Positions 7,121 through 61,934 of a DNA stretch of 64,000 bases are shown one piece after another. The position numbers and the translations under genes were made by a program. Source of the stretch: Escherichia coli (lineage in GTDB: Bacteria > Pseudomonadota > Gammaproteobacteria > Enterobacterales > Enterobacteriaceae); the NCBI RefSeq assembly GCF_045037415.1, contig NZ_CP173438.1; one strand, written 5' to 3'. Under the pieces are notes generated by a model. It was not told the origin of the DNA. It ran no database searches and saw nothing but the letters and a program-made list of their open reading frames with translations. Position 1 is the first letter of the stretch. Each line of letters begins with the position of its first letter.

Positions 7121-7197
7121 GGCTACGTAGCTCAGTTGGTTAGAGCACATCACTCATAATGATGGGGTCACAGGTTCGAATCCCGTCGTAGCCACCA
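7121..7197 (+). tRNA. metT: tRNA-Met (CAU), elongator
   Basis: ggctacgtagctcagttggttagagcacatcactCATaatgatggggtcacaggttcgaatcccgtcgtagccacca; cloverleaf with CAU anticodon, encoded CCA. Confidence 0.95.
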
Positions 7198-7207
7198 TCT
7201 TTTTTTT

Positions 7208-7292
7208 GCGGGAGTGGCGAAATTGGTAGACGCACCAGATTTAGGTTCTGGCGCCGCAAGGTGTGCGAGTTCAAGTCTCGCCTCCCGCACCA
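7208..7292 (+). tRNA. leuW: tRNA-Leu (UAG), long variable arm
   Basis: gcgggagtggcgaaattggtagacgcaccagattTAGgttctggcgccgcaaggtgtgcgagttcaagtctcgcctcccgcacca. Confidence 0.95.
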
Positions 7293-7315
7293 TTCACCAG
7301 AAAGCGTTGTACGGA

Positions 7316-7390
7316 TGGGGTATCGCCAAGCGGTAAGGCACCGGTTTTTGATACCGGCATTCCCTGGTTCGAATCCAGGTACCCCAGCCA
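7316..7390 (+). tRNA. glnU: tRNA-Gln (UUG)
   Basis: tggggtatcgccaagcggtaaggcaccggtttTTGataccggcattccctggttcgaatccaggtaccccagcca. Confidence 0.95.
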
Positions 7391-7424
7391 TATTCTTCGA
7401 GTAAGCGGTTCACCGCCCGGTTAT

Positions 7425-7499
7425 TGGGGTATCGCCAAGCGGTAAGGCACCGGTTTTTGATACCGGCATTCCCTGGTTCGAATCCAGGTACCCCAGCCA
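7425..7499 (+). tRNA. glnW: tRNA-Gln (UUG), identical duplicate
   Basis: Identical 75-nt sequence to the preceding tRNA-Gln(UUG). Confidence 0.95.
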
Positions 7500-7514
7500 T
7501 CGAAGAAACAATCT

Positions 7515-7591
7515 GGCTACGTAGCTCAGTTGGTTAGAGCACATCACTCATAATGATGGGGTCACAGGTTCGAATCCCGTCGTAGCCACCA
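7515..7591 (+). tRNA. metU: tRNA-Met (CAU), elongator, duplicate
   Basis: Identical to the first tRNA-Met. Confidence 0.95.
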
Positions 7592-7639
7592 AATTCTGAA
7601 TGTGTCGAATATGTTCGGCAAATTCAAAAACCAATTTGT

Positions 7640-7714
7640 TGGGGTATCGCCAAGCGGTAAGGCACCGGATTCTGATTCCGGCATTCCGAGGTTCGAATCC
7701 TCGTACCCCAGCCA
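7640..7714 (+). tRNA. glnV: tRNA-Gln (CUG)
   Basis: tggggtatcgccaagcggtaaggcaccggattCTGattccggcattccgaggttcgaatcctcgtaccccagcca. Confidence 0.95.
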
Positions 7715-7751
7715 ATTTATTCAAGACGCTTACCTTGTAAGTGCACCCAGT

Positions 7752-7826
7752 TGGGGTATCGCCAAGCGGTAAGGCACCGGATTCTGATTCCGGCATTCCG
7801 AGGTTCGAATCCTCGTACCCCAGCCA
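7752..7826 (+). tRNA. glnX: tRNA-Gln (CUG), duplicate
   Basis: Identical to preceding tRNA-Gln(CUG). Confidence 0.95.
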
Positions 7827-15041: not shown

Positions 15042-16919
15042 TTACGGTTCAGGGATACAAGCCACATCGCCATATTGGGGATGCCGAATAATTGCCTGCG
15101 GATCAAGTGAACTTTCTCTGTCCAGTTGTATTAGCCCGTTCTTCGCCATAACAAATATCTTTCTACCATCCGCTGAAAAACGAAGATGATTCACGTAGCT
15201 GGCAGGATAAACGCCAATAATCTGCCCGGCATTAATATTGAGCAGGATGACATAACCTTGCAGGCCATATGACACCAACGCTAAATATTGACCGTCCGGG
15301 CTAATACCCTCAACGGAATAAACGCTCCTGCTACACCATTGCGTCATAATGCTGGCTTGTTGATCCTCAGCTCTTATACGTGAAATCCCCTGGCTATCGG
15401 CAAAAATAATCTCACCATTTTTTGGTCGGAATCCCATCGCAGAAACGACACCACGCGCATCACCTGCGGGAAAGTCTTCTTTCTGATGCGTGATGGTATT
15501 GATCCGCACGATGTTACCTCTGCCTGCTCCCGGAACCAGTAATGTTTTTTCATCCGGGGAAAGTGCCATAACCCAGGCGCCTGGTTTACCGCTCATCCCC
15601 GTCCCGTCGTATTTCTCCAGCGGGATATCCGCCACATGCTGATAAGCCACCAGATCAATCGCTGACACACTATTACTGGTGCGATTCATCACCCAGGCTT
15701 TTGTGCCATCACGCGAGAGGATAAGGCTGTCAGGATGTGCGCCGGTGGTAATCGACTGAATAATCTCCCCCGTTGCCACGTTAATGACCGATAATGCATT
15801 CGCTTCAAATGAAGTCGCATACAGCAACGTTTCATCCGGGCTTAGCGCCAGCGACCTGACGCCCTGATCTTTACAGCCACCACAATGTTTGACTGACTTT
15901 TCTTTCGCTATGGGGGCTGTAAAGGTATGCAGGATTTTCTTTTGTCCGAGGTCGAAAACAACAATGCTGTTCGTGTTTTCAATTGCGGCATACAACGTAT
16001 TAGCATCCCGACTGATCGCCATATCATGGATATCGGCAATCTCAGCGAGTAAATCACCACTGGCCTGCTCACGACTTACCGGAGCGGATAATGTTTCCCT
16101 GAGGGCGTTGCGCTCCTCCACTAACTGCTGCTTTTTTTGTCGTCGCTCTTGTTCAATCTCCTGCGGATAAAACGCTTCACGCAGGCTTTGCCTGACCTGT
16201 AAAACTGATTCATCAATCTGCTGCTGCACAAGCCAGATAGTCCCGGTCAGAAGAAGAGTGACCGCAACAATAATCCCGCCTTCCGTAACGAGCCGATTTT
16301 GCCCAACTAAACGCGCACTCAGCCAACCCAACGCGCCCCCCGCAATCAGGCCGCCAATGTGGCAAGCGTTATCTATTCCTGTTTGCCGGGTACCATACAA
16401 CAGTGTCAGCGCCACCATACCCAACAGAGGAAATACTCGCCGCTGGTTTTTATGGTGTGTGCCCGCACCTGAAGCAAGCTGTGTTGCTATCGCAGCGCCC
16501 GCTATTCCCATAATTGCCCCGGATGCCCCAACGCTGATGACTATCTGCTCACTTTCGCGTAACGCATAACAGGCGCTGATCAGCCCACCAAAGATGCCGG
16601 AGAATAACCAGATAATCAGGAGTCGCCATTTCCCCAGTATCCGTTCCGCCACTGTCCCCACCACCAGGAGTGCAAACATATTCATCAGCAAATGGGAAAA
16701 ACTACTGTGCAGAAAAACACTGCTCAATAAGCGCCAGGATTCATCCGACAACGTGAGAGAAGCAACGTTAGCGCCGAGATGGATGAGTGCGGATTGATCG
16801 ACTTCTTCGTAACTCATCCATTGTGCGAGGTAACAAAATATCCCAACACAGAGCGCAAAAAGGATCAGGGTTATTGCGGGTAATTGAACATTTAACGGCT
16901 TAACCGAAGATGCAGACAT
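15042..16919 (-). CDS. rhomboid-family intramembrane serine protease fused to a C-terminal seven-bladed beta-propeller (YVTN/YncE-like), 625 aa
   Basis: N-terminal ~230 aa: 7 predicted TM helices with rhomboid signatures (TM2 FLHSSFSHLLMNMF, catalytic GASGAIMG, catalytic His in ACHIGGLIAGG). Then a charged coiled-coil-like linker (QEIEQERRQKKQQLVEERNALRE) and ~350 aa of repeated beta-strand blades. Good RBS (AAGGAAG). Confidence 0.8.
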   Translation of the reverse strand: MSASSVKPLNVQLPAITLILFALCVGIFCYLAQWMSYEEVDQSALIHLGANVASLTLSDESWRLLSSVFLHSSFSHLLMNMFALLVVGTVAERILGKWRLLIIWLFSGIFGGLISACYALRESEQIVISVGASGAIMGIAGAAIATQLASGAGTHHKNQRRVFPLLGMVALTLLYGTRQTGIDNACHIGGLIAGGALGWLSARLVGQNRLVTEGGIIVAVTLLLTGTIWLVQQQIDESVLQVRQSLREAFYPQEIEQERRQKKQQLVEERNALRETLSAPVSREQASGDLLAEIADIHDMAISRDANTLYAAIENTNSIVVFDLGQKKILHTFTAPIAKEKSVKHCGGCKDQGVRSLALSPDETLLYATSFEANALSVINVATGEIIQSITTGAHPDSLILSRDGTKAWVMNRTSNSVSAIDLVAYQHVADIPLEKYDGTGMSGKPGAWVMALSPDEKTLLVPGAGRGNIVRINTITHQKEDFPAGDARGVVSAMGFRPKNGEIIFADSQGISRIRAEDQQASIMTQWCSRSVYSVEGISPDGQYLALVSYGLQGYVILLNINAGQIIGVYPASYVNHLRFSADGRKIFVMAKNGLIQLDRESSLDPQAIIRHPQYGDVACIPEP

Positions 16920-17372
16920 AAGGTGATTCTTCCTTGAAAAGACTAGTAAAAAGCATTTTCCCGTGTGTAGTTATCATCCCGGCAAACGTCCCACACCGAA
17001 AAGTTAACACTGTCCGAAATATGACTTTTTCAAACTGAAATTACAATCGTAATTAATTCACCCCTAAGTATTTTTTGGCATGTAAGTTGCTTTATTTACT
17101 GTGTAAGCAATGAAATCAGCCGCAACGCAACCGGGTTGCACCACCACAAATCAGCGGTAGCACCAAAAAGGTGCGGTTTAAGAATTTTGCTTCGGAATGG
17201 TGCGGCGCACCTCGCAAAAACAAACAATAAAACAGCAATATCTTTACATTTATCCAAACTAAATGTTACCTAACAAGCACAACACTGCACAATAAAGTCG
17301 CAGATGATAACAACACAAACACTCACAACGGGTATCCATGCGTTTTTAACGCAGAAGATAAAGGAGTTGGAT

Positions 17373-18281
17373 ATGCAATTACGTAAACCTGCCACAGCAA
17401 TCCTGGCCCTGGCGCTTTCCGCAGGACTGGCACAGGCAGATGACGCCGCCCCGGCAGCTGGCAATACGCTGGACAAAATCGCCAAAAACGGCGTGATTGT
17501 CGTCGGTCACCGTGAATCTTCAGTACCTTTCTCTTATTACGACAATCAGCAAAAAGTGGTGGGCTACTCGCAGGATTACTCCAACGCCATTGTTGAAGCA
17601 GTGAAAAAGAAACTCAACAAACCAGACTTACAGGTGAAATTGATTCCGATCACCTCACAAAACCGTATTCCACTGCTGCAAAACGGCACTTTCGATTTTG
17701 AATGCGGTTCTACCACCAACAATGCCGAACGCCAAAAACAGGCGGCTTTCTCTAACACTATTTTCGTGGTCGGTACGCGCCTGCTGACCAAAAAGGGCGG
17801 TGATATCAAAGATTTTGCCGACCTGAAAGGCAAAGCCGTAGTCGTCACTTCCGGCACCACCTCTGAAGTTTTGCTCAACAAACTGAATGAAGAGCAAAAA
17901 ATGAATATGCGCATCATCAGCGCCAAAGATCACGGTGACTCTTTCCGTACCCTGGAAAGCGGTCGTGCCGTTGCCTTTATGATGGATGATGCTCTGCTGG
18001 CCGGTGAACGTGCGAAAGCGAAGAAACCAGACAACTGGGAAATCGTCGGCAAGCCGCAGTCTCAGGAAGCCTATGGTTGCATGTTGCGTAAAGACGATCC
18101 GCAGTTCAAAAAGCTGATGGATGATACCATCGCTCAGGTGCAGACCTCCGGTGAAGCGGAAAAATGGTTTGATAAGTGGTTCAAAAATCCAATTCCGCCG
18201 AAAAACCTGAACATGAATTTCGAACTGTCAGACGAAATGAAAGCACTGTTCAAAGAACCGAATGACAAGGCACTGAACTAA
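17373..18281 (+). CDS. gltI: glutamate/aspartate ABC transporter periplasmic binding protein
   Basis: ORF track 17304-18281; true start at MQLRKPATAILALALSAGLAQA (signal peptide) preceded by AAGGAG; 302 aa. Confidence 0.95.
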   Translation: MQLRKPATAILALALSAGLAQADDAAPAAGNTLDKIAKNGVIVVGHRESSVPFSYYDNQQKVVGYSQDYSNAIVEAVKKKLNKPDLQVKLIPITSQNRIPLLQNGTFDFECGSTTNNAERQKQAAFSNTIFVVGTRLLTKKGGDIKDFADLKGKAVVVTSGTTSEVLLNKLNEEQKMNMRIISAKDHGDSFRTLESGRAVAFMMDDALLAGERAKAKKPDNWEIVGKPQSQEAYGCMLRKDDPQFKKLMDDTIAQVQTSGEAEKWFDKWFKNPIPPKNLNMNFELSDEMKALFKEPNDKALN

Positions 18282-18437
18282 TTACAAGAACCAGGGGCGG
18301 AAATTCCAGCCCTCTCGATTGTTACGTAGCACGGACAGACTATACGCCTGGTGGTCGTTCCCCATCGGGCCTGAAAACCGCAATACGCTGGGTAACAATC
18401 TTCGAGGGTAGCAGTTAACGCTGCTACCCTCTTTTTT
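18280..18437 (+). ncRNA. sroC: SroC sRNA (processed from the gltI 3' end / gltI-gltJ spacer)
   Basis: 169-bp gltI-gltJ spacer ending in hairpin gagggtagcagttaacgctgctaccctc plus TTTTTT (18404-18437); SroC is known to derive from this spacer. 5' end not determinable from sequence. Confidence 0.5.
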
Positions 18438-18450
18438 CTGGAGTAGATTT

Positions 18451-19191
18451 ATGTCTATAGACTGGAACTGGGGTATTTTTTTACAACAAGCCCCGTTCGG
18501 CAACACCACCTATCTTGGTTGGATCTGGAGTGGCTTTCAGGTGACGATCGCTTTGTCGATCTGCGCCTGGATTATCGCTTTCCTCGTCGGTTCATTTTTC
18601 GGCATTTTACGTACCGTTCCAAACCGTTTTCTCTCCGGTCTGGGTACGTTGTATGTCGAACTGTTCCGCAACGTGCCGTTGATTGTGCAATTCTTTACCT
18701 GGTACCTAGTGATCCCGGAGCTGCTGCCAGAGAAAATCGGCATGTGGTTTAAGGCAGAGCTGGATCCCAATATTCAGTTTTTCCTTTCATCCATGCTCTG
18801 CCTGGGGCTGTTTACCGCCGCCCGTGTTTGCGAACAGGTACGCGCAGCTATTCAGTCGCTGCCGCGTGGGCAAAAAAATGCCGCGCTGGCGATGGGTCTG
18901 ACGCTACCGCAGGCTTACCGCTACGTACTGCTGCCTAATGCTTATCGCGTTATCGTCCCGCCGATGACCTCAGAGATGATGAACCTGGTGAAAAACTCCG
19001 CCATCGCCTCGACTATCGGTCTGGTGGATATGGCGGCGCAGGCGGGTAAATTGCTCGATTACTCGGCCCACGCCTGGGAGTCGTTTACCGCCATCACGCT
19101 GGCGTATGTATTGATTAACGCTTTTATCATGCTGGTGATGACGCTGGTTGAACGTAAAGTTCGCCTGCCCGGCAACATGGGGGGCAAATAA
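18451..19191 (+). CDS. gltJ: glutamate/aspartate ABC transporter permease
   Basis: 246-aa polytopic ORF; synteny. Confidence 0.95.
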
Positions 19192-19865
19192 TGTACGAGT
19201 TTGACTGGAGTTCCATTGTTCCTTCCCTGCCATATCTGCTCGACGGGCTGGTGATCACGCTGAAAATCACCGTCACGGCAGTGGTGATTGGTATTTTGTG
19301 GGGCACCATGCTGGCGGTGATGCGCTTGTCCAGCTTTGCGCCCGTAGCGTGGTTTGCCAAAGCCTACGTTAACGTATTCCGCTCGATTCCTTTAGTTATG
19401 GTTTTGCTGTGGTTTTACCTGATCGTACCGGGTTTTCTGCAAAACGTGCTGGGATTATCACCCAAAAATGATATCCGTTTAATTTCGGCGATGGTGGCGT
19501 TTTCGATGTTTGAAGCGGCCTACTATTCAGAGATTATCCGTGCTGGTATTCAAAGTATTTCTCGTGGTCAGTCGAGCGCCGCGCTGGCGTTGGGAATGAC
19601 TCACTGGCAGTCGATGAAACTGATTATTCTGCCGCAGGCGTTCCGCGCGATGGTGCCGCTGTTGCTCACTCAGGGCATCGTACTGTTTCAGGATACCTCA
19701 CTGGTGTATGTGTTATCTCTGGCCGATTTCTTCCGTACCGCCTCAACCATTGGTGAGCGTGATGGTACGCAGGTTGAGATGATCCTGTTTGCCGGATTTG
19801 TTTATTTCGTTATTAGCCTTAGCGCGTCGTTGTTGGTCAGCTACTTGAAAAGAAGGACAGCATAA
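19191..19865 (+). CDS. gltK: glutamate/aspartate ABC transporter permease
   Basis: 224-aa ORF, start overlaps gltJ stop. Confidence 0.95.
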
Positions 19866-20590
19866 TGATTACCCTGAAAAATGTTTCAAAATGGTATGGT
19901 CACTTTCAGGTGCTGACCGACTGCTCAACCGAAGTGAAAAAAGGCGAAGTTGTGGTGGTTTGCGGCCCGTCTGGTTCCGGCAAATCAACGCTGATTAAAA
20001 CCGTCAACGGCCTCGAACCGGTGCAGCAAGGTGAAATCACCGTCGATGGCATCGTGGTTAACGACAAGAAAACCGATCTGGCGAAACTGCGTTCCCGCGT
20101 CGGGATGGTGTTTCAGCATTTCGAGCTGTTCCCCCATCTGTCGATTATCGAAAACCTGACCCTGGCGCAGGTGAAAGTGCTTAAACGCAATAAAGCGCCG
20201 GCTCGTGAAAAAGCATTGAAATTGCTGGAGCGCGTCGGGCTTTCCGCACATGCCAATAAGTTTCCGGCGCAGCTTTCCGGCGGCCAGCAGCAGCGTGTGG
20301 CGATCGCTCGCGCATTGTGCATGGATCCTATTGCCATGCTGTTCGACGAACCAACGTCGGCGCTGGATCCGGAGATGATCAACGAAGTGCTGGACGTGAT
20401 GGTCGAACTGGCGAACGAAGGAATGACGATGATGGTGGTGACCCACGAAATGGGCTTTGCCCGTAAAGTGGCGAATCGGGTGATCTTTATGGACGAGGGT
20501 AAAATTATCGAAGACTCGCCGAAAGACGCTTTCTTCGATAATCCGAAATCGGACCGCGCAAAAGACTTCCTCGCAAAAATCCTGCATTAA
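19865..20590 (+). CDS. gltL: glutamate/aspartate ABC transporter ATP-binding protein
   Basis: 241-aa ORF with Walker [10 protein letters not shown] and ABC signature LSGGQQQR. Confidence 0.96.
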
Positions 20591-57719: not shown

Positions 57720-57948
57720 TCCTCTGATTTACAAAACACGCTAATTCGTCTTCCATAAACCATGACGATTAAGATTTATACATAATGCGCTACATTGAGG
57801 AATTCCCTGAATGTGACGCAAATCACTTCAAAGAGTGAGCAACAGTCAGTATCATCATGTGAGTTAAACCCTCGCCGCCTGACGGTGAGGGTTTTCTTTT
57901 GGGTATGTTTATCTGCGACACTCGCAGTACCGACGACATGGAGTAAAA

Positions 57949-61563: not shown

Positions 61564-61934
61564 CTATACTTCCTCCGTGTTTTCGATGAGATGTAAGGTA
61601 ACCAATTTTTGCCGATTCGGCTAATGCGTTTCCATTATCAAATCGATAAGTTTTACCTTACAACCTTCGTAAGACAACTTTGTGAACTTTGCACCGCCAG
61701 CGGCGATAAAAAGTAAAATGGCCCCCTTTCCAGGTGACCGTGTAATCTGAACTACCCTTTGGTATCTTCAGCACCTGCCTGCAGGCTGAGGTGTTGCCCT
61801 TACAAATGCAACAACGACATGGATTACAACACCCTCATAAACAAAGGGCAATCACCTGATCTAAGCTCTTACCTATGACAGTGATAGGTTATGCCTTTTA
61901 CTCGACTTTTGCACTGACTGAAAAGGACAAATTA

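What the first reader, a model, noticed from the sequence alone, without database searches (positions are those of the whole stretch)
18280..18437. gltI-gltJ spacer has the architecture expected for the SroC sRNA
The 169-bp spacer ends in a strong hairpin plus T-run just before gltJ, matching the known origin of SroC (a sponge of the GcvB sRNA) from the gltI 3' region. The hairpin also acts as an intra-operon attenuator.
Basis: partly seen in the sequence, partly recalled or inferred. Interest (0 to 1): 0.2.

Follow-up and report, generated by a model that had tools for sequence, protein, structure and literature searches.

The report
The known E. coli SroC RNA

Summary
Confirmed, and already known. 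The window is E. coli. Rfam's sroC model (RF00369) matches 18277-18439 (+) at full length with 172.6 bits (gathering score 45, E 2.5e-36). These are exactly the coordinates of the curated K-12 gene sroC (b4763), and the sequence differs from K-12 at one base. That base (18351, A to G) turns an A-U stem pair into G-U and is a common allele (1086 of 5414 genomes). Both experimentally mapped GcvB contact sites are intact: GGACAGAC at 18333-18340 and UCGUUCC at 18355-18361, 14 nt apart. They are perfectly complementary to E. coli GcvB nt 156-163 and 13-19. The 3' end is a 12-bp hairpin (18404-18431, -21.3 kcal/mol) followed by T6. Across 80 species chosen only by GltI protein, GGACAGAC and CGUUCC are present in 80/80 while the stems between them covary. 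"Attenuator" is supported only as a leaky intra-operon terminator (literature, Salmonella). Regulated attenuation is unproven, and my test of an anti-terminator pairing was negative. Novelty: none. Interest: low.

The parts
17300..17332 (+). C/A-rich element in the gltI 5' UTR. It is the target of the GcvB R1 seed, which makes the parent mRNA itself a GcvB target.
   Evidence: Duplex with GcvB nt 61-91 is -34.3 kcal/mol against -17.4 +/- 3.6 for 1000 shuffles, none as good. The target role is described in PMC4474525.
17373..18281 (+). gltI CDS (periplasmic Glu/Asp-binding protein, 302 aa). It is the parent mRNA of SroC.
   Evidence: ORF list. RefSeq and K-12 annotation of the identical sequence.
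18277..18439 (+). SroC sRNA, 163 nt. The 5' end is a processing site inside the end of gltI; the 3' end is the intrinsic terminator.
   Evidence: Rfam RF00369, 172.6 bits, model positions 1-163. The coordinates map exactly to K-12 ncRNA sroC b4763, 686681-686843.
18294..18313 (+). Stem-loop 1 (SroC nt 18-37).
   Evidence: MFE fold. Helix 1 is 91% paired across 57 species, with 2 pairs changed on both sides.
18317..18400 (+). Long-range stem (SroC nt 41-54 with 111-124) that encloses the GcvB-binding module.
   Evidence: MFE fold. Helix 2 has 9 of 13 pairs with changes on both sides.
18333..18340 (+). GcvB contact site GGACAGAC (SroC nt 57-64). It pairs with GcvB R3/SL4, nt 156-163.
   Evidence: Perfect 8-nt Watson-Crick match, duplex -15.3 kcal/mol. 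C60 pairs with G160, matching the compensatory mutants C63G/G160C in Salmonella numbering. Present in 80/80 species loci.
18346..18370 (+). Stem-loop 2 (SroC nt 70-94), which presents the second GcvB site in its loop.
   Evidence: MFE fold, -13.5 kcal/mol. Helix 5 is 97.5% paired, with 6 of 9 pairs changed on both sides.
18351..18351 (+). The only difference from K-12: G instead of A (SroC nt 75). The pair with U89 becomes G-U instead of A-U.
   Evidence: Alignment. The fold is unchanged, -13.5 against -14.1 kcal/mol. 1086 of 5414 E. coli genomes are identical to the window over the 57-nt probe centred on this base.
18355..18361 (+). GcvB contact site UCGUUCC (SroC nt 79-85, the SL2 loop). It pairs with GcvB SL1, nt 13-19.
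   Evidence: Perfect 7-nt match, duplex -10.9 kcal/mol. C84 pairs with G14, matching mutants C87G/G14C. CGUUCC is present in 80/80 loci and UCGUUCC in 68/80.
18404..18439 (+). Rho-independent terminator: a 12-bp hairpin (18404-18431) plus TTTTTTCT. It forms the 3' end of SroC and of monocistronic gltI mRNA, and is read through to make gltIJKL.
   Evidence: Terminator scan. Hairpin energy -21.3 kcal/mol. Pair probability is at least 0.996. A T-run is present in 80/80 loci. 'Leaky' comes from PMC4474525.
18440..19191 (+). gltJ Shine-Dalgarno GGAG (18440-18443) and gltJ CDS (18451-19191). This is the first gene that depends on read-through.
   Evidence: Sequence and ORF list. Annotation. No promoter-like site was found in 17000-19400, but that scan also missed the gltI promoter.
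19191..20590 (+). gltK (19191-19865) and gltL (19865-20590), the rest of the operon.
   Evidence: ORF list. Annotation.

Best explanation
Window 18277-18439 (+) is the E. coli sroC gene. Steps 1 to 3 rest on experiments in Salmonella and E. coli K-12, and I apply them to this copy because it differs from K-12 by one base. (1) Transcription from the single gltI promoter stops at the intergenic hairpin plus U-tract in a fraction of rounds, giving a gltI-only mRNA. The remaining rounds read through into gltJKL. (2) RNase E, guided by Hfq and dependent on a 5' monophosphate, trims the gltI mRNA down to a very stable, tightly folded RNA of about 160 nt. Its 5' end lies in the last codons of gltI. 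(3) With Hfq, SroC pairs with the GcvB sRNA at two short sites. The internal-bulge site GGACAGAC pairs with GcvB R3/SL4, and the SL2-loop site UCGUUCC pairs with GcvB SL1. This triggers RNase E cleavage of GcvB while SroC survives. GcvB represses many amino-acid transporter and metabolism mRNAs, including gltI itself through the C/A-rich 5' UTR element. SroC therefore de-represses the whole regulon and its own parent mRNA. Shown here are the identity, the fold, its covariation, and the presence and conservation of both pairing sites, the terminator and the gltI 5' UTR target.
For: The Rfam sroC hit is full-length at 172.6 bits against a gathering score of 45, E 2.5e-36. The coordinates equal K-12 ncRNA sroC b4763 and 162 of 163 nt are identical. 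The segment is present in 5421 of 5426 complete E. coli genomes. The fold has z = -6.0. Both GcvB sites are perfectly complementary to E. coli GcvB, and the residues pair in the register proven by compensatory mutations. In 80 species loci selected only by GltI protein, GGACAGAC is 80/80, CGUUCC 80/80 and the 14-nt spacing 67/68. On 57 distinct sequences, 18 pairs change on both sides and the covariation score is 0.220 against 0.106 for shuffles. None of 500 shuffles reaches that score, and slid controls give at most 0.057. gcvB is in 5425 of 5426 E. coli genomes, and a genome with the window's sroC allele (SK1144) has a K-12-identical gcvB. The gltI 5' UTR pairs with GcvB R1. Literature support comes from PMC4474525. 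RIL-seq finds about 70% of GcvB chimeras with SroC in E. coli stationary phase (PMC5145812; PMC9299463). In E. coli, SroC shortens GcvB half-life from over 16 min to about 3.8 min (PMC10250213).
Against: Nothing here contradicts it. There are three caveats. Expression, processing and Hfq binding of this strain's copy cannot be observed from sequence. The window does not contain gcvB, so the partner is inferred from other E. coli genomes. Short complementarities to GcvB are only modestly enriched over shuffles (6 seven-mers against 1.8 expected, p about 0.04), so the pairing claim rests on published mutagenesis plus the invariance shown here.
Confidence: 0.97

Rival explanations
1. The spacer is only a cis-acting element: an intra-operon terminator and 3' stabiliser that sets the GltI:GltJKL ratio. 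The RNA fragment would then be an inert decay product with no trans-acting role.
For: The strong terminator sits immediately upstream of the gltJ Shine-Dalgarno. Binding-protein genes of ABC operons are commonly over-expressed relative to the downstream genes (PMC4474525 sec. 14).
Against: A terminator needs only about 36 nt, yet 127 nt upstream is a conserved, covarying structure. Two unpaired or loop segments are invariant in 80/80 species and exactly complementary to GcvB. Published compensatory mutagenesis and E. coli half-life and RIL-seq data show trans activity. The cis role is real, but it adds to the trans role and does not replace it.
Confidence: 0.02
2. In addition to encoding SroC, the spacer is a regulated attenuator. 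An alternative pairing of the invariant block CCCUCUCG (18310-18317) with the terminator's 5' arm CGAGGG (18403-18408), or a bound factor, would tune read-through into gltJKL and SroC output.
For: The blocks CCCUCUCGAUUG and AAUCUUCGAGGGUAGC and 9 of 12 terminator pairs never vary across genera, although the SL2 stem covaries freely. Rfam's own consensus structure pairs UCUCG with CGAGG. MFE folds of 132-150-nt nascent prefixes of the window show this pairing. Miyakoshi et al. raise regulated termination as a possibility.
Against: The forced alternative folds are 9-10 kcal/mol less stable than the terminator fold, and their pair probabilities are at most 0.0005. Across species the nascent-prefix pairing occurs in 34/57 sequences against 132/285 controls with the upstream block shuffled, so it is not specific. 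U39 changes to C or A without compensation at A129. A ribosome-coupled version is unlikely, because the distance from stop codon to SL1 varies and three Citrobacter species carry a ~125-nt repeat there.
Confidence: 0.1
3. The spacer encodes a small protein, for example the 75-aa ORF on the minus strand at 18282-18509.
For: The ORF exists mechanically.
Against: Spacer lengths among species take nearly every value from 154 to 170 nt, so indels are not in multiples of three. Variation follows RNA-stem compensation, not codon structure. The ORF overlaps the gltJ start on the opposite strand, and no annotation supports it.
Confidence: 0.005

Closest known systems
SroC sRNA of E. coli K-12 (b4763) and Salmonella (Rfam RF00369; Vogel et al. 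2003; Miyakoshi, Chao & Vogel 2015, PMC4474525)
   Same: Same locus, strand, length and ends. 162 of 163 nt are identical to K-12. Same fold, same two GcvB contact sites with the same 14-nt spacing, and same terminator.
   Different: One base differs (18351 G instead of A), giving G-U instead of A-U in the SL2 stem. This is a common natural allele, and 1086 of 5414 genomes are identical to the window over the 57-nt probe. Compared with Salmonella and most other genera, Escherichia has a terminator stem 4 bp longer and a U-tract of 6 instead of 8.
Other RNase E-processed sRNAs from mRNA 3' regions (CpxQ, SdhX, NarS, OppZ, MalH; review PMC9438474)
   Same: All are released from a parent mRNA by RNase E, share the parent's terminator, depend on Hfq and carry a 5' monophosphate.
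   Different: SroC comes from inside an operon, at a premature terminator, and not from the operon's end. Its main target is another sRNA, which it sponges and decays, and not an mRNA.
Other bacterial sRNA sponges (chbBC spacer against ChiX; tRNA-spacer 3'ETS-leuZ against RyhB/RybB)
   Same: Each is a by-product of another transcript that titrates an Hfq-dependent sRNA.
   Different: SroC acts through two separate short sites and causes RNase E cleavage of its partner while itself surviving. ChiX decay on chbBC follows a different route.

Membership tests
SroC (Rfam RF00369) | Covariance-model score at or above the curated gathering score, over the full model | tested here: met
   172.6 bits against 45, model 1-163 of 163, E 2.5e-36. 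Repeated locally with E 7e-38.
SroC (Rfam RF00369) | Location in the gltI-gltJ spacer, on the same strand as the operon, with the 5' end inside the end of gltI | tested here: met
   gltI is at 17373-18281, SroC at 18277-18439 and gltJ starts at 18451. The coordinates equal K-12 b4763.
SroC (Rfam RF00369) | Rho-independent terminator forming the 3' end | tested here: met
   12-bp hairpin at 18404-18431 plus T6. A T-run is conserved in 80/80 loci.
SroC (Rfam RF00369) | Two GcvB-pairing sites, about 7 and 8 nt and 14 nt apart, complementary to GcvB SL1 and R3/SL4 | tested here: met
   GGACAGAC (18333-18340) matches GcvB 156-163 and UCGUUCC (18355-18361) matches GcvB 13-19, with a 14-nt gap. The register matches the published compensatory mutants.
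SroC (Rfam RF00369) | Conserved secondary structure (SL1, long stem, SL2) supported by covariation | tested here: met
   91.8% of cells are paired and 18 pairs change on both sides. None of 500 shuffles reaches the observed score, and slid controls are 4-fold lower.
SroC (Rfam RF00369) | No promoter of its own; made by processing of the gltI mRNA | tested here: inconclusive
   No sigma-70-like site was found in 17000-19400. The scan is crude and also misses the gltI promoter. Processing is known from experiments.
SroC (Rfam RF00369) | GcvB partner encoded in the same genome | tested here: inconclusive
   gcvB is not in the 64-kb window. It is in 5425 of 5426 E. coli genomes, and strain SK1144, which carries the window's sroC allele, has a K-12-identical gcvB.
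SroC (Rfam RF00369) | Stable ~160-nt Hfq-bound RNA with 5' monophosphate that accelerates GcvB decay through RNase E | not testable with these tools
   Known for Salmonella and E. coli K-12 (PMC4474525, PMC10250213, PMC5145812). Applied here because the sequence is nearly identical.
Regulated transcription attenuator | Mutually exclusive terminator and anti-terminator structures, with a signal that chooses between them | tested here: not met
   The alternative fold is 9-10 kcal/mol worse and has negligible probability. Nascent pairing is no more frequent than in shuffled-block controls. No signal was identified.
Leaky intra-operon intrinsic terminator | Intrinsic terminator between cistrons of one transcription unit, with downstream genes dependent on read-through | tested here: met
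   The terminator lies between gltI and gltJ, and no promoter-like site lies downstream of it before gltJ (weak). The read-through fraction is not measurable here; 'leaky' comes from PMC4474525.

The most novel reading that the evidence does not exclude
The nucleotide blocks that never vary across genera but lie outside the GcvB contacts may mark a still-unknown control of termination at this site, or a binding site for an unknown factor or RNA. The blocks are CCCUCUCGAUUG (18310-18321), AAUCUUCGAGGGUAGC (18397-18412) and the invariant terminator stem. Such a control would set both the GltI:GltJKL ratio and how much SroC, and hence how little GcvB, the cell has. My two simple tests, alternative-structure energetics and specificity of nascent pairing, did not support an RNA-only switch. 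A protein- or sRNA-mediated mechanism is not excluded.
Probability: 0.12. Interest if true: 0.35.

Novelty: already known. Interest (0 to 1): 0.05.

Why it matters
It matters only as a correct annotation. SroC controls the level of GcvB, the master sRNA of amino-acid transport and metabolism, yet automatic RefSeq annotation leaves this gene unnamed in nearly all E. coli genomes. Nothing about this copy changes what is known. The comparative data collected here add small details only. Both GcvB sites are invariant across 80 Enterobacteriaceae species. The terminator stem is unusually invariant. Several species tolerate a ~125-nt repeat inserted next to sroC, or within it between SL2 and the 3' strand of the long stem.

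Tried and rejected
1. An anti-terminator switch, pairing CCCUC/UCUCG with GAGGG, was not supported. The forced folds are -56.5 and -55.4 against -65.7 kcal/mol, and their pair probabilities are at most 0.0005. The pairing seen in nascent prefixes is not specific: 34/57 natural sequences against 132/285 shuffled-block controls.

2. Ribosome-coupled attenuation was rejected. SL1 starts 13 nt after the stop codon. That spacing varies between species, and in three Citrobacter species it is interrupted by a ~125-nt repeat.

3. SroC-MgrR pairing could not be corroborated. The best 25-nt-window duplex is -18.8 kcal/mol against -20.6 +/- 2.9 for shuffles, and the only 8-mer match lies in MgrR's terminator. 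This reflects the limits of the method and does not argue against the published interaction.

4. Whole-molecule duplexfold runs (SroC against GcvB, and the UTR against GcvB) give meaningless long duplexes. I replaced them with site-restricted calculations.

5. An extra 8-nt match of SroC 101-108 to GcvB 189-196 lies in stems of both RNAs and is treated as chance.

6. A sub-threshold Rfam hit to Listeria sbrA (25.1 bits against 45) over the terminator hairpin is a chance resemblance between hairpins.

7. The mBio 2016 paper that mentions gltI-sroC-gltJKL contains no read-through measurement.

8. The minus-strand 75-aa ORF was rejected.

Full report
**Observation.** The window is Escherichia coli. 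A 321-nt probe across the site is found at 95% identity or better in 5421 of 5426 complete E. coli genomes, lying between genes annotated gltI and gltJ. In the window, gltI is at 17373-18281 (+) and gltJ begins at 18451. It ends in a 12-bp hairpin with a 4-nt loop (18404-18431, -21.3 kcal/mol) followed by TTTTTTCT (18432-18439). The gltJ ribosome-binding site GGAG (18440-18443) follows directly. The 163-nt segment folds with z = -6.0 against dinucleotide shuffles.

**Identity.** The Rfam covariance model for sroC (RF00369) matches 18277-18439 (+) over its full length. The score is 172.6 bits against a gathering score of 45, E 2.5e-36. A permissive local scan on both strands adds only a sub-threshold chance hit on the terminator hairpin. 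The curated K-12 MG1655 record annotates ncRNA sroC (b4763) at 686681-686843, between gltJ and gltI. Aligned to the window, these ends map exactly to 18277 and 18439, and the two sequences differ at one base, 18351 (G here, A in K-12). That base is SroC nt 75 in the SL2 stem, and the change turns an A-U pair into G-U without altering the fold: -13.5 against -14.1 kcal/mol. It is a common allele, since 1086 of 5414 genomes are identical to the window over a 57-nt probe centred on it. PGAP-annotated RefSeq genomes leave the gene unnamed.

**GcvB-pairing region.** Miyakoshi, Chao and Vogel (PMC4474525) mapped two short SroC-GcvB duplexes of 7-8 nt, 14 nt apart in SroC. They proved them with compensatory mutations, SroC C63G/C87G against GcvB G160C/G14C in Salmonella numbering. 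In the window, GGACAGAC (18333-18340, SroC nt 57-64) is perfectly complementary to E. coli GcvB nt 156-163. UCGUUCC (18355-18361, nt 79-85, the SL2 loop) is perfectly complementary to GcvB nt 13-19, and the gap between the sites is 14 nt. The mutated residues line up as C60-G160 and C84-G14, because Salmonella numbering is offset by +3. The paper is inconsistent about which site it calls BS1 and which BS2, so I name the sites by their GcvB partner. gcvB is not in the window. It is present in 5425 of 5426 E. coli genomes, and strain SK1144, which carries the window's sroC allele, has a K-12-identical gcvB.

**Comparative test.** I fetched 80 loci from 80 species of Enterobacteriaceae, selected only by similarity to GltI protein (86-98% identity), so the sample is unbiased with respect to the spacer. 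All 80 have a gltI-gltJ spacer of 154-339 nt ending in a T-run. GGACAGAC is present in 80/80 and CGUUCC in 80/80. UCGUUCC is present in 68/80, the other 12 share a single U-to-C change at the first loop base, and the 14-nt gap holds in 67 of 68. I aligned 57 distinct compact spacers and mapped the window's MFE structure onto the alignment. Under that structure 91.8% of cells are paired, 18 pairs change on both sides, and the covariation score is 0.220 against 0.106 for shuffles. None of 500 shuffles reaches the observed score, and slid controls give at most 0.057. The SL2 stem covaries at 6 of 9 pairs while its loop is invariant, which is the signature of a structured RNA presenting fixed pairing sites.

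**Mechanism.** The chain below is taken from experiments and applied here by near-identity.

- A single gltI promoter gives both gltIJKL and, through a leaky Rho-independent terminator, monocistronic gltI (PMC4474525 sec. 14; PMC9438474).
- RNase E, in a reaction dependent on a 5' monophosphate and guided by Hfq, trims the gltI mRNA to SroC.
- SroC pairs with GcvB at the two sites and triggers RNase E decay of GcvB, while SroC itself is spared.
- In E. coli, SroC lowers GcvB half-life from over 16 min to about 3.8 min (PMC10250213).
- In stationary phase, about 70% of GcvB RIL-seq chimeras are with SroC (PMC5145812, PMC9299463).

The parent mRNA is itself a GcvB target. The C/A-rich 5' UTR element at 17300-17332 pairs with GcvB R1 at -34.3 kcal/mol against -17.4 +/- 3.6 for shuffles. 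SroC therefore closes a positive loop on its own operon. Further reported targets are MgrR and fliE/flhBAE.

**The attenuator claim.** As a constitutive, leaky intra-operon terminator that lets GltI be made in excess over GltJKL, the claim agrees with the literature. It also fits the anatomy: a terminator lies directly before the gltJ Shine-Dalgarno, and no promoter-like site was detected between them (weak evidence). As a regulated attenuator it is unproven. Two blocks outside the GcvB contacts, CCCUCUCGAUUG and AAUCUUCGAGGGUAGC, and 9 of 12 terminator pairs are invariant across genera. The Rfam consensus structure even pairs UCUCG with CGAGG. I therefore tested an anti-terminator. In the window, nascent prefixes of 132-150 nt do fold that way. 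However, the full-length alternative is 9-10 kcal/mol less stable, with pair probabilities of at most 0.0005. Across species the nascent pairing appears in 34/57 sequences against 132/285 controls with the upstream block shuffled. U39 also varies without compensation. The idea is not supported. A ribosome-coupled variant is unlikely, given the variable spacing and a repeat insertion between the stop codon and SL1 in some species. Why those blocks are invariant remains unexplained.

**Verdict.** The feature is the already characterised SroC sRNA in an ordinary E. coli allele. Novelty is none and interest is low.

Noticed in passing
L014, L023, L038 (spacer nt ~10-135 after the gltI stop); L036, L039, L045, L053 (between SL2 and the 3' strand of the long stem): A ~125-nt dispersed intergenic repeat is inserted next to or inside sroC in several Citrobacter, Enterobacter, Yokenella and Trabulsiella species. 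Both GcvB sites and the terminator stay intact. The repeat has a median of 7 copies per E. coli genome at 60-90% identity. It resembles ERIC/IRU, a name I give from memory. There is no copy in the window.
   Followed up: partly
L081 (Cedecea colo), spacer nt ~150-340: The terminator module appears twice. The first copy is degenerate (GAGGCUAGC...CCCUCAC) and has no U-tract. About 130 nt further on is an intact copy with a T-run just before gltJ.
   Followed up: no
window 18404-18439, compared with alignment A2: The terminator stem core GAGGGUAGC/GCUACCCU never varies in 57 species, which is unusual for a terminator and contrasts with the freely covarying SL2 stem. Escherichia alone extends the stem by 4 bp through the inserted AGUUAACG, and has a U-tract of 6 instead of 8.
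   Followed up: partly
window 18310-18321 and 18397-18412: The blocks CCCUCUCGAUUG and AAUCUUCGAGGGUAGC are invariant or nearly so across genera but lie outside the GcvB contact sites. Their role is unexplained.
   Followed up: partly
window 15042-16919 (-): A 625-aa ORF, annotated in strain SK1144 as a rhomboid family intramembrane serine protease, lies between lnt and gltI. K-12 MG1655 has insertion sequence IS5D at the corresponding place.
   Followed up: partly
window 44368-44816 (-), 57795-57903 (+), 61708-61801 (-), 7121-7823 (+): Other Rfam hits above the gathering score are the cspA thermoregulator (136.1 bits), the rnk leader (124.9 bits) and STnc70, which is barely above threshold (41.8 against 40). 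There is also a cluster of seven tRNA genes.
   Followed up: no
window 17120-17215: Upstream of gltI there are repeated TGCACC/GGTGC(A/G) motifs, such as ggttgcaccacc, gtagcaccaaaaaggtgcgg and aatggtgcggcgcacc. From memory they resemble NtrC binding sites of a nitrogen-regulated promoter. The simple sigma-70 scan found no promoter here.
   Followed up: no
window 18377-18384 and 18374-18381: SroC nt 101-108 (ACCGCAAU) is complementary to GcvB nt 189-196, and SroC nt 98-105 (AAAACCGC) to MgrR nt 87-94. Both matches fall in the partners' terminator hairpins and are probably chance.
   Followed up: partly
PMC4474525, sections 8 and 9: The paper's text is inconsistent about which SroC-GcvB duplex is 'BS1' and which is 'BS2'. 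Section 8 and the quoted energies imply that BS2 is the R3 site, while section 9 labels SroC C63 as BS1.
   Followed up: no
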